DNA of 64,000 nucleotides from an uncultured Acidobacteriaceae bacterium (lineage in GTDB: Bacteria > Acidobacteriota > Terriglobia > Terriglobales > Acidobacteriaceae), in the NCBI GenBank assembly GCA_963770555.1, contig CAVYQC010000006.1, forward strand, positions 105,564-169,563. The letters run 5' to 3'. A model generated the notes under the pieces. It was not told the origin of the DNA, searched no databases, and saw only the letters and a program-made list of their open reading frames with translations. This document shows positions 28,083 to 28,206 of this stretch, piece by piece. Within the stretch, counting starts at the first letter, position 1; each line of letters starts with the position of its first letter. Made by a program: the position numbers and the translations under genes.

Positions 28083-28206
28083 AGGAGAATCCTCGACCGC
28101 TCTATGCGACAGGCTCAGCCGGACTCGCGACTTTAGTCCGAGGCAGCTCCCGACGGATCATGACCATGCGGTTCCGACCCGCGAATATCAGACTGATCAA
28201 TCGTCG
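28083..28206 (+). ncRNA. Bridge RNA / seekRNA of the IS110 element (target-binding and donor-binding loops)
   Basis: Two homologous internal loops, each built as guide-ATGCG...CGCGA-guide-AG; guides match the reconstructed target and the circle junction. Confidence 0.8.

What the first reader, a model, noticed from the sequence alone, without database searches (positions are those of the whole stretch)
28083..28206. Fully decodable bridge/seek RNA: two homologous guide loops matching target and donor
Seen: removing the IS gives the target ggttAGagcggt. Loop 1 is closed by ggag/ctcc (28083-86/28147-50) and cctcg/cgagg (28091-95/28139-43). Its 5' strand accgctcta (28096-104) is the exact reverse complement of tAGagcggt, and its 3' strand has ttAG (28133-36). 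Loop 2 is closed by cgacg-gatca/tgatc-cgtcg (28151-60/28194-206). Its 5' strand (a)tgac (28160-64) is complementary to the junction gtca(t), and its 3' strand atatcAG (28185-91) equals the donor right end. Both loops share the scaffold guide-ATGCG...CGCGA-guide-AG-NN. Established: IS110 bridge RNAs and IS1111 seekRNAs guide recombination through such loops. Inference: a compact (about 125 nt), naturally programmable recombinase-RNA pair with right-guide-first order downstream of the transposase. The class is known; this member and its target may not be described.
Basis: partly seen in the sequence, partly recalled or inferred. Interest (0 to 1): 0.85.

Follow-up and report, generated by a model that had tools for sequence, protein, structure and literature searches.

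The report
Bridge RNA of an IS1111-type element
This is the guide ("bridge" or "seek") RNA of a jumping gene of the IS110/IS1111 family in a soil acidobacterium. Its two loops do read the insertion site and the element's own ends, so the finding is real, but it is a new member of a kind described in 2024, not a new kind.

Summary

- **The element.** Bases 26711-28298 are a 1588-bp IS110-family element of the IS1111 type. It has a 375-aa DEDD transposase, 14-bp subterminal inverted repeats, a short left end and a long right end.
- **Target guides.** Across 67 related insertions carrying 38 distinct guide pairs, the loop-1 guides change together with the flanking DNA (0 of 10,000 permutations reach the observed match). 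The rest of the 127-nt scaffold is almost invariant.
- **Structure.** A covariance model finds the same RNA just 3' of transposases that are 30-54% identical, in Proteobacteria and Bacillus, and next to the named element ISEc45. 16 of 31 pairs show compensatory changes.
- **Corrections.**
  - The effective guides are shorter than claimed: right target 7 nt, left target 4-5 nt.
  - A 32-bp covarying outer stem (28044-75 with 28214-45) encloses both loops.
  - Metatranscriptome contigs from relatives suggest an RNA of about 150 nt.
  - The target is the tip of a 113-nt palindromic repeat.
- **Prior work.** Durrant et al. 2024 already list the same clade (ISCARN28, ISEc45) as IS1111-type with a right-end bridge RNA.

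Verdict: a new member of a known kind, of moderate interest.

The parts
26705..26710 (+). Left target half plus core (ggtt-AG). The AG core dinucleotide is repeated at the right end of the element (28297-98).
   Evidence: Left flanks of 67 loci end in AG, mostly TAG or CAG. DNA contigs break at 26707/8 with several different left flanks.
26711..28298 (+). Whole insertion sequence, 1588 bp, IS110 family, IS1111 type. Left end 97 nt, right end 363 nt.
   Evidence: DNA depth inside is 3-6 times that of the flanks in soil metagenomes.
26716..26729 (+). Left subterminal inverted repeat, ATGGAGTGACCGGT.
   Evidence: Inverted repeat I12, 14 nt, 93% complementary to 28280-93. Conserved in 80 loci.
26721..26809 (+). 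5' UTR hairpin. Bases just inside the left repeat pair with the ribosome-binding site and ATG of the transposase gene.
   Evidence: Fold z = -4.7. The pairing is kept with different sequences in distant relatives.
26808..27935 (+). Transposase/recombinase gene, 375 aa, DEDD plus Ser type. Catalytic residues D11, E59, D97, D100 and S269-G270.
   Evidence: Pfam PF01548 and PF02371. NF033542. Alignment to ISCro4 9t56 and a match to IS621 8wt6.
27936..28043 (+). A/C-rich spacer (CAACAG repeats) between the stop codon and the RNA.
   Evidence: repeat family D4. Only a sub-threshold CrcZ-like Rfam match.
28044..28075 (+). 5' arm of the outer (basal) stem.
   Evidence: Inverted repeat I1, 32 nt, 88% complementary. 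Fold z = -5.84. 7 pairs have compensatory changes. The stem is kept as structure in 11 of the 12 relatives tested, including ISEc45; the exception is L094.
28084..28150 (+). Target-binding arm. Stems are P1 28084-87/28147-50, P2 28091-94/28140-43 and P3 28105-09/28125-29, with a small apical hairpin.
   Evidence: helices 1-4; P1, P3 and the apical helix have compensatory changes; P2 is invariant.
28097..28103 (+). Right target guide (CCGCT plus core-facing CT). It pairs with the top strand AG-AGCGG at 28297-28303.
   Evidence: Matches to flank positions +1 to +5 are 94, 88, 94, 70 and 72%; +6 is 30%. 0 of 10,000 permutations reach the observed match.
28132..28136 (+). Left target guide (TTT-AG). 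It is identical to the top strand of the left target plus core, so it pairs with the bottom strand. In this copy 4 of 5 bases match (ttAG).
   Evidence: Matches at -1, -2 and -3 are 97, 91 and 60%. 0 of 10,000 permutations reach the observed match.
28151..28206 (+). Donor-binding arm. Stems are P4 28151-55/28202-06, P5 28156-60/28194-98 and P6 28167-71/28179-83.
   Evidence: helices 5-7.
28161..28164 (+). Right donor guide (TGAC). It pairs with G-TCA, the second core base plus the first three bases of the left end (26710-13).
   Evidence: A single compensatory case: Cupriavidus L086 has left end AGACA with guide TGTC.
28185..28191 (+). Left donor guide (ATATCAG). It is identical to the last 7 bases of the right end, 28292-98.
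   Evidence: In most of the distant relatives examined, the differing right-end sequence matches that relative's own guide, e.g. CATGAGAG and CATATCAG; two show a one-base mismatch.
28214..28245 (+). 3' arm of the outer stem.
28277..28282 (+). TTGACA. A perfect -35 hexamer that would sit 17 nt from CATCAT (26712-17) once the ends are joined in a circle.
   Evidence: Read from the sequence. No sigma-70-like promoter in the linear element. TTGACA is at the same place in L086, L084 and L089.
28280..28293 (+). Right subterminal inverted repeat, ACAGGTCACTCCAT.
28299..28411 (.). 113-nt palindromic dispersed repeat. Its first bases (AGCGGTTCC) are the right half of the target.
   Evidence: Self reverse-complement match of 71.5% over its whole length. 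Minimum free energy -68.7 kcal/mol, and the same repeat lies right of the element in 8 other loci. Raised DNA depth.

Best explanation
The region is the bridge RNA (also called long seekRNA) gene of an IS1111-type member of the IS110 family.

**Architecture.** The RNA is made from the + strand, 3' of the transposase gene. It folds into a long basal stem carrying two homologous internal-loop arms.
- **Target arm.** Its 5' strand (28097-28103) pairs with the top strand of core plus right target (AG-AGCGG). Its 3' strand (28132-28136) pairs with the bottom strand of left target plus core (tt-AG).
- **Donor arm.** It reads the joined ends of the excised circle in the same way. The 5' strand TGAC pairs with G-TCA at the left end. 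The 3' strand ATATCAG pairs with the bottom strand of the right end.

**Inferred mechanism.** These steps are inferred by analogy with IS621 and ISEc11.
- The DEDD/Ser recombinase binds both arms.
- It brings circle and target together and exchanges strands at the AG core.
- The element is inserted without a duplication other than the core.
- Joining the ends would build a TTGACA-17-CATCAT promoter. This promoter would drive the transposase gene and, through it, the RNA. The RNA would then be trimmed out of the long stem.

**Natural target.** It is the tip of a 113-nt palindromic repeat.

**Shown here:** the anatomy, guide-target covariation, structural covariation, and transcription of family members.

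**Inferred:** protein binding, chemistry, promoter use and processing.
For: 1. **Recombinase.** PF01548 and PF02371. NF033542 'IS110 family RNA-guided transposase', 222 bits. Related to the solved bridge recombinases ISCro4 and IS621; the residue-level alignment to ISCro4 shows D, E, D..D and SG in place.
2. **Guide and flank change together.** 67 loci carry 38 distinct guide pairs. The mean right match is 4.4 of 6 against 2.0 permuted, and the left match is 3.5 of 6 against 2.25. In both cases 0 of 10,000 permutations reach the observed value. Examples: guide CAGGGG-CT with flank AG-CCCCTG; TACTTG-CT with AG-CAAGTT; TCTTAC-CT with AG-GTAAGG.
3. **Variation is confined to the guides.** Variation is concentrated at the target-guide positions and three donor-arm loop positions, in an otherwise almost invariant 127-nt scaffold.
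4. **Structure.** Model R1 finds the RNA directly 3' of transposases that are 30-54% identical, in Alpha- and Betaproteobacteria, Bacillus and E. coli ISEc45.
   - 95.9% of cells are paired, against 32-43% when partners are slid.
   - 16 of 31 pairs changed on both sides; 0 of 500 shuffles reach this.
   - Conserved U-G pairs fix the + strand as the RNA strand.
5. **Outer stem.** Compensatory changes. Kept as structure with unrelated sequence in 11 of the 12 relatives tested; the exception is L094.
6. **Expression.** Peat metatranscriptome contigs of close relatives cover 28067-28208 at depth 65-99, against 0-3.6 over the transposase gene. Sequencing adapter abuts both ends. Four more RNA runs hold family members.
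7. **Donor guides.** Most of the distant relatives examined have differing right ends that match their own loop-2 3' strand; two show a one-base mismatch. L086 shows a compensatory change for the left end.
8. **Literature.** Guide order and RNA length fit IS1111 seekRNAs (PMC11187229; long forms 148-172 nt). The IS621 pairing scheme is the same: the left guide pairs with the bottom strand and the right guide with the top strand (PMC11208158).
Against: - No experiment exists on this element. Binding, cleavage and any requirement for the RNA are untested.
- The RNA evidence comes from assembled contigs of relatives in metatranscriptomes. These have no strand information and may contain DNA. No run with this exact sequence as RNA was found (at most 0.19 of the sampled words).
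- The inner stems are invariant among close relatives. Their covariation rests on an alignment fitted to the model.
- No orthologous empty site was recovered.
- The left-end donor guide is only about 4 nt, and its first core-facing base is mismatched in this copy (C opposite A).
- No Rfam family matches.
- No promoter for the RNA was identified in the linear element.
Confidence: 0.92

Rival explanations
1. The conserved block acts as DNA, not RNA. It would be a set of subterminal recombinase-binding sites or a single-stranded DNA hairpin in the right end that the enzyme recognises directly.
For: The block lies inside the right end, near the subterminal repeat. IS1111 elements have protein-recognised ends in older models.
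Against: - Two U-G pairs are kept in 19 and 24 of 25 sequences. They would be C-A mismatches on the other strand.
- The variable positions track the flanking target, not the element's ends.
- Family members are abundant in RNA libraries relative to the transposase gene.
Confidence: 0.03
2. It is a cis-regulatory 3' UTR structure (stabiliser, terminator or antisense target) that controls transposase expression and has no role in site choice.
For: The long outer stem and the position right after the stop codon resemble a stabilising 3' structure. The element also has a 5' UTR hairpin over the start codon.
Against: A purely regulatory element would not need loop bases that change with each lineage's insertion site (0 of 10,000 permutations). 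Nor would it need a second loop that copies the element's own ends.
Confidence: 0.03
3. The stretch encodes a small protein, the 97-aa ORF 28027-28320.
For: An open frame spans it.
Against: - Relatives carry 1-nt and other indels that are not multiples of three inside it.
- Changes come as compensatory pairs.
- The frame runs across the element's right end (28298), out into the flank.
Confidence: 0.01

Closest known systems
ISCARN28 and ISEc45 (ISfinder names; IS1111 group in Durrant et al. [quoted passage not shown]
   Same: - They belong to the same transposase clade: 42% identity to ISCARN28 and 44% to ISEc45.
- The bridge RNA is predicted in the right end.
- Model R1 built here hits right after the ISEc45 transposase gene, E = 2.7e-5.
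- In an ISEc45-like copy the left flank ACACGTAG equals its loop strand CACGTAG.
- The same long outer stem is present.
   Different: - The host phylum differs (Acidobacteriota).
- The target and guides differ, and so do the end sequences.
- RNA sequence identity to ISEc45 is low (24 bits).
- I could not read the ISCARN28 RNA itself, so the RNA-level comparison with it is indirect.
IS1111-family seekRNAs of ISEc11, ISPa11 and ISKpn4 (Siddiquee et al. 2024, PMC11187229)
   Same: - The non-coding region lies downstream of the transposase gene, and there are subterminal inverted repeats.
- The top-strand match lies 5' of the bottom-strand match.
- The long RNA forms are 148-172 nt.
- The ends form a promoter at the circle junction.
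- ISPa11 also targets a REP-type palindrome.
   Different: - Those transposases are 330-350 aa against 375 aa here.
- Canonical IS1111-type elements tested here (IS5708 and IS4321) are only about 26% identical, and R1 does not hit them.
- That paper defines target matches only and describes no donor loop.
IS621 / ISCro4 bridge RNA (IS110 group; Durrant 2024, Hiraizumi 2024)
   Same: - Two loops, each with a left guide for the bottom strand and a right guide for the top strand.
- A core dinucleotide is read by both loops.
- The recombinase is DEDD plus Ser.
   Different: - The RNA is encoded in the left end, upstream of the gene, and the guide order within each loop is reversed.
- The core is CT rather than AG.
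- The repeats are 2-3 bp rather than 14 bp.
- No long basal stem encloses both loops.
- Protein similarity is distant, E = 1e-9 to 1e-11.

Membership tests
IS110 family (DEDD RNA-guided transposases) | N-terminal DEDD/RuvC-like domain plus C-terminal Tnp domain | tested here: met
   PF01548 (E = 1.9e-17) and PF02371 (E = 7.4e-18). NF033542 at 222 bits against a cut-off of 140.
IS110 family (DEDD RNA-guided transposases) | Catalytic D, E, D, D and the Ser of the G--P----SG motif | tested here: met
   Alignment to ISCro4 (9t56) shows LGLDV, YEAG, KTDRRDA and G-AVP-SEES-SG in place: D11, E59, D97, D100, S269. The residue roles come from IS621 (PMC11208158).
IS110 family (DEDD RNA-guided transposases) | Site-specific insertion with no target duplication beyond a short core shared by donor and target | tested here: met
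   AG is at both junctions and nothing else is repeated. The same holds in nearly all of the 67 loci with both junctions. No orthologous empty site was found to confirm it directly.
IS1111 group | Subterminal inverted repeats of 7-17 bp set a few bases in from each end | tested here: met
   14 bp with 1 mismatch (26716-29 and 28280-93). They lie 5 bases in from each end.
IS1111 group | Short left end, long right end, and guide RNA downstream of the transposase gene | tested here: met
   Left end 97 nt, right end 363 nt. The RNA is at 28044-28245, after the stop codon at 27935.
IS1111 group | Top-strand target match lies 5' of the bottom-strand match in the RNA | tested here: met
   28097-103 is complementary to the top strand and 28132-36 is identical to it. 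The criterion is from PMC11187229.
IS1111 group | Transposase groups with IS1111-type proteins | tested here: inconclusive
   Nearest named relatives are ISEc45 (44%) and ISCARN28 (42%), both labelled IS1111 by Durrant et al.. Identity is only about 26% to IS5708 and IS4321. Length is 375 aa against the 330-350 aa quoted for the core IS1111 set. No tree was built.
Bridge RNA / seekRNA (functional class) | Loop strands that match both strands of the target and co-vary with it | tested here: met
Bridge RNA / seekRNA (functional class) | A second loop that matches both sides of the joined donor ends | tested here: met
   ATATCAG equals the right end. TGAC pairs with GTCA at the left end. Most of the distant relatives examined match their own ends; two show a one-base mismatch. 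The left-end guide is short and rests on one compensatory case.
Bridge RNA / seekRNA (functional class) | Conserved secondary structure supported by covariation | tested here: met
Bridge RNA / seekRNA (functional class) | Transcribed, bound by the recombinase and required for transposition | not testable with these tools
   Only indirect evidence: metatranscriptome contigs of relatives.
Rfam RNA families | Match to a curated covariance model | tested here: not met
   No family reaches E < 1 in 26500-28700. This search therefore found no curated Rfam 15 model matching this RNA.

The most novel reading that the evidence does not exclude
Three features may be mechanistic traits of this IS1111 subclade that have not been described.

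1. **Outer stem as a maturation signal.** The 25-32-bp outer stem is kept as structure from Acidobacteria to E. coli ISEc45. It may be the signal that releases an RNA of about 150 nt from the 3' UTR of the transposase mRNA. That would tie guide supply to the circle-junction promoter.
2. **Asymmetric guides.** The right target and right end get long guides (7 nt). The left target and left end get short ones (4-5 nt). This may set the direction of the reaction.
3. **Unequal cores.** In relatives whose donor and target cores differ, the left junction keeps the donor core (AG) and the right junction keeps the target core (AA). These natural 'scars' could show on which side of the core the strands are exchanged.
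Probability: 0.3. Interest if true: 0.5.

Novelty: new member of a known kind. Interest (0 to 1): 0.35.

Why it matters
- **A natural reprogramming series.** 38 guide pairs sit on one almost invariant 127-nt scaffold, each paired with its own insertion site. This shows directly which loop positions are read: 5 plus 2 on the right and 2-3 plus 2 on the left.
- **Engineering.** That is useful design information for anyone engineering IS1111-type recombinases, which are far less studied than IS621 and ISCro4.
- **Annotation.** The covariance model built here (R1) recovers the RNA across several phyla and could be used to annotate it, since the Rfam search found no matching family.
- **Host biology.** It explains why this element piles up at the tips of a palindromic repeat in acidobacterial genomes.
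- **Limit.** It does not change the current picture of how these systems work.

Tried and rejected
- **Rfam scan of the element.** Only two sub-threshold chance matches, AS1726 and CrcZ.
- **Folding the 141-nt stretch 28075-28215 alone.** No better than shuffles (z = 0.08). Thermodynamics of the core is therefore not evidence by itself.
- **Second copy of the element or its target in the window.** None found, apart from an unoccupied TAGAGCGGT at 17201.
- **Empty site.**
  - DNA metagenome contigs show no joint that skips the element.
They share only 22 nt and have unrelated surroundings, so they are not orthologous.
- **Covariation between loop-2 5' strand and the variable left-end bases +4/+5.** By eye over the table of loci, none was apparent. 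Those bases do not seem to be read.
- **Sigma-70-type promoter for the RNA inside the linear element.** None found.
- **Canonical IS1111 relatives (IS5708, IS4321).** Model R1 does not detect them, so homology of the RNA to those seekRNAs could not be shown.
- **RNase III-type processing.** I tried to read it from the adapter-flanked RNA ends. The ends (28067; 28206-16) do not give the expected 2-nt overhang, so this stays an idea only.

Full report
**1. What is at the coordinates**

- cctcg 28091-95 pairs with cgagg 28139-43.
- ctcc is at 28147-50. Its partner ggag is at 28084-87, so that coordinate is one base off.
- accgctcta is at 28096-104 and ttAG at 28133-36.
- cgacg-gatca is at 28151-60 and tgatc-aat-cgtcg at 28194-206.
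- atgac is at 28160-64 and atatcAG at 28185-91.
- Both loops share ATGCG...CGCGA.

The surrounding element runs from 26711 to 28298.
- The left flank is ...ccggtt-AG, then tcatc, then ATGGAGTGACCGGT (26716-29).
- The right side is ACAGGTCACTCCAT (28280-93), then atatc-AG, then agcggttcc.
- The two 14-nt blocks are inverted repeats (I12).
- Removing the element leaves ggttAGagcggt, as stated.

The ORF 26808-27935 (375 aa) carries PF01548 and PF02371. It scores 222 bits on NCBIfam NF033542, 'IS110 family RNA-guided transposase', against a cut-off of 140. It is distantly related to the solved bridge recombinases ISCro4 (9t56, E = 2.7e-11) and IS621 (8wt6, E = 1.7e-9). The residue-level alignment to ISCro4 shows the D, E, D..D and SG positions in place.

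**2. Is it more than chance?**

Within the window alone the case is modest.
- TAGAGCGGT occurs twice against 0.28 expected.
- ATATCAG occurs three times against 2.3 expected.
- The 141-nt stretch 28075-28215 (the core plus a few flanking bases) folds no better than shuffled sequence, z = 0.08.

Related sequences decide the matter. A scan of one genome per species returned 80 loci from Acidobacteriaceae and Terriglobales genomes, with transposases 72-97% identical. In 67 of them I could read both junctions and the RNA.

Among these loci the 127-nt core is almost invariant. The target-guide positions follow the flanks. Examples:
- CAGGGG-CT lies next to AG-CCCCTG.
- CCAGGG-CT lies next to AG-CCCTGG.
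- TACTTG-CT lies next to AG-CAAGTT.
- TCTTAC-CT lies next to AG-GTAAGG, and its 3' strand GTAAG matches the left flank GGTAAG.
- AACGCC-CT lies next to AG-GGCGT.

Match rates by position:

| Flank position | Matches its guide base |
|---|---|
| right +1 | 94% |
| right +2 | 88% |
| right +3 | 94% |
| right +4 | 70% |
| right +5 | 72% |
| right +6 | 30% (chance level) |
| left -1 | 97% |
| left -2 | 91% |
| left -3 | 60% |

Shuffling the 38 distinct guide types among loci never reached the observed match in 10,000 trials, on either side.

The result also trims the guides.
- The right target guide is 28097-28103: five bases plus the CT that faces the core.
- The left target guide is 28132-28136: two or three bases plus AG.
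- Base 28096 and the A at 28104 pair in this copy, but the family does not use them.

**3. Structure**

*Outer stem.* A 32-nt inverted repeat, 28044-75 with 28214-45 and 88% complementary, encloses both loops.
- With it, 28035-28255 folds at -88.6 kcal/mol, z = -5.84.
- Among close relatives the inner stems never vary, so they say nothing either way. The outer stem has compensatory changes at seven pairs.

*Distant relatives.* To reach informative distances I built a covariance model of the core (R1). I searched annotated plasmid loci whose transposases are 30-54% identical.
- R1 hits directly after the transposase gene in:
  - Acidiphilium (E = 4e-18)
  - Cupriavidus
  - Bacillus sp. F19
  - Azospirillum
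  - Paracoccus
  - Salipiger
  - Lichenicola
  - Thioclava
  - B. thuringiensis (donor arm only)
  - the named E. coli element ISEc45 (E = 2.7e-5)
- It does not hit IS5708 or IS4321, whose transposases are about 26% identical.

*Pair counts.* These were made on the 25-sequence alignment of the matches.
- 95.9% of cells pair, against 32-43% when partners are slid by 1-3 columns.
- 16 of 31 pairs changed on both sides.
- None of 500 shuffles reaches the observed values.
- That alignment is fitted to the model, which favours the structure. The size of the effect, and the fully changed P3 and P1 helices, make the conclusion safe.
- Two U-G pairs are kept in 19 and 24 of 25 sequences. They would be C-A mismatches on the other strand, so the + strand is the RNA.

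*Outer stem in relatives.* It is present in 11 of the 12 relatives tested, with unrelated sequences, z = -3.6 to -9.0. The exception is the B. thuringiensis locus L094, where only the donor arm was detected.

*Full architecture.* A long basal stem carries a target arm and a donor arm.

**4. The donor arm**

The 3' strand ATATCAG equals the last seven bases of the right end. Among close relatives both are constant, so they cannot co-vary.
- Most distant relatives examined have different right ends that match their own loop. Examples are CATGAGAG in Azospirillum, Paracoccus and Salipiger, and CATATCAG in Cupriavidus.
- Two show a one-base mismatch: Acidiphilium L081, which is frameshifted, and ISEc45.

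The 5' strand pairs through TGAC with G-TCA, the second core base and the first three bases of the left end.
- In Cupriavidus the left end is AGACA and the loop reads TGTC. This is a single compensatory case.
- The variable left-end bases +4 and +5 showed no apparent relation to the loop on reading the table of loci.
- In this copy the base facing the first core position is a C opposite A. Many relatives have UU there.

In IS621 terms (PMC11208158), the 3' strands are the left guides, which pair with the bottom strand. The 5' strands are the right guides, which pair with the top strand. The order within each loop is the reverse of IS621. It is the order reported for IS1111 seekRNAs (PMC11187229).

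**5. Expression**

No RNA run holds this exact sequence. Metatranscriptomes from peat, soil and wetland do hold close and more distant family members.
- In two peat runs, contigs cover 28067-28208 at depth 65-99 and 11-30. Over the transposase gene the depth is 0-3.6.
- In one run sequencing adapter abuts both ends of the contig, at 28067 and about 28216. In the other it abuts the 3' end, at 28206.
- That points to a discrete, stable RNA of about 150 nt. This is close to the 148-172 nt 'long seekRNAs' of IS1111 members.
- Four other runs contain the conserved donor arm joined to different target arms.

Caveats: these are assembled contigs, without strand information. Contig depth is a poor measure of expression, and DNA carry-over is possible.

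No sigma-70-like promoter lies inside the linear element. Joining the ends would place the perfect -35 TTGACA (28277-82) 17 nt from CATCAT (26712-17). TTGACA sits at the same place in the Cupriavidus, Salipiger and ISEc45 relatives. A junction promoter is known for ISEc11 and IS621; here it is inferred.

**6. The target**

The right flank 28299-28411 is a 113-nt palindrome.
- It matches its own reverse complement at 71.5% over its full length and folds at -68.7 kcal/mol.
- The same repeat family lies immediately right of the element in eight other loci.
- In soil metagenomes this stretch has higher depth than the unique flanks, and the element itself is 3-6 times deeper.
- At the far end of one such repeat (locus L066) there is an uninterrupted TAGAGCGGTTTCGCAATT.

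So this lineage inserts at the tip of a REP- or MITE-like hairpin, as several IS1111-type elements do. Other lineages with other guides sit in other repeated contexts, for example AACAG|GCCAATGCACTCATCGAG.

I did not recover an orthologous empty site.

**7. Comparison with what is known**

Durrant et al. 2024 predicted bridge RNAs in 93% of IS1111-group elements, in the right end. Their Supplementary Table 5 lists ISCARN28 and ISEc45 as 'RE, IS1111'. ISCARN28 is one of six bridge RNAs they drew.
- The transposase here is 42% identical to ISCARN28 and 44% to ISEc45.
- Model R1 finds the RNA next to ISEc45.

The element is therefore a new member of an already described subclade, and neither the class nor the layout is new. 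What this analysis adds:
- a position-by-position map of which loop bases are read;
- the conserved outer stem;
- the palindromic-repeat target;
- a model (R1) that recovers the RNA across phyla, while the Rfam search found no matching family.

**8. Rival readings**

- **A DNA-level binding site.** Argued against by the strand-specific U-G pairs, the tracking of target rather than end sequence, and the RNA reads.
- **A purely regulatory 3' UTR structure.** Does not explain loops that copy the target and the ends.
- **The 97-aa ORF across the region.** Broken by indels in relatives, and it runs out of the element into the flank.

**9. Verdict**

It is a new member of a known kind. Interest is moderate (0.35). 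It is useful as a natural guide-retargeting series and as a starting point for the less-studied IS1111 side of the family, but it would not surprise a specialist.

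Noticed in passing
window 28299-28411: A 113-nt near-perfect palindromic dispersed repeat (-68.7 kcal/mol) with terminal AGCGGTTyC...GRAACCGCT. 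The element sits exactly at its tip. The same repeat family flanks the element in 8 other loci and has raised depth in soil metagenomes.
   Followed up: partly
window 26721-26809: A 5' UTR hairpin in which bases just inside the left inverted repeat pair with the ribosome-binding site and ATG of the transposase gene (z = -4.7). The pairing is kept with different sequences in the 50%-identity relatives. This suggests translation is blocked in read-through transcripts.
   Followed up: partly
L079/L080 right junction; L084 and L093 right junction: In these relatives the left junction reads ...AG|left end, but the right junction reads right end ...A|A... (core AA, not AG). Their donor loop still reads AG, and the target loop has UU or AU facing the core. 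It looks like a donor-derived core on the left and a target-derived core on the right. This may bear on where the strands are exchanged.
   Followed up: partly
window 28044-28075 with 28214-28245, and the same place in 11 of the 12 relatives tested: The long basal stem is conserved as structure with unrelated sequence from Acidobacteria to E. coli ISEc45. The RNA ends seen in metatranscriptomes (28067 and about 28206-16) fall inside or next to it, but do not give a clean RNase III-type overhang.
   Followed up: partly
window 27936-28043: An A/C-rich spacer with CAACAG repeats lies between the transposase stop codon and the RNA. This is unusual in a GC-rich genome. It gives only a weak CrcZ-like Rfam match and draws massive low-complexity cross-mapping in RNA runs.
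   Followed up: no
L003 3827-4951 (- strand): A second insertion sequence is nested between the transposase gene and the bridge RNA of an otherwise intact copy. Its 374-aa ORF looks IS5-family by eye and was not scanned. It moves the RNA 1.3 kb away from the gene.
   Followed up: partly
window 17201-17209 (- strand): The only other exact TAGAGCGGT in the window. It is an unoccupied near-cognate site, with right half and core perfect but only 1 of the 3 bases left of the core matching.
   Followed up: no
window guide 28131-34 compared with L022 and L001-L004: Copies with 97-99% identical RNA differ at the left target guide (CTTTAG here, ACACTAG there). The window copy (GGTTAG), L022 (CGACTAG) and most of the others have matching left flanks; L004's left flank (CTTTAG) does not match its own guide. 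This looks like very recent natural retargeting by one or two base changes.
   Followed up: partly
L095 9722-9743 and L096 2723-2744: Two metagenome contigs carry an exact 22-nt copy of the rebuilt target (AGCTGCCGGTTAGAGCGGTTCC) in otherwise unrelated sequence. It is probably a coincidence, or a shared repeat tip.
   Followed up: partly
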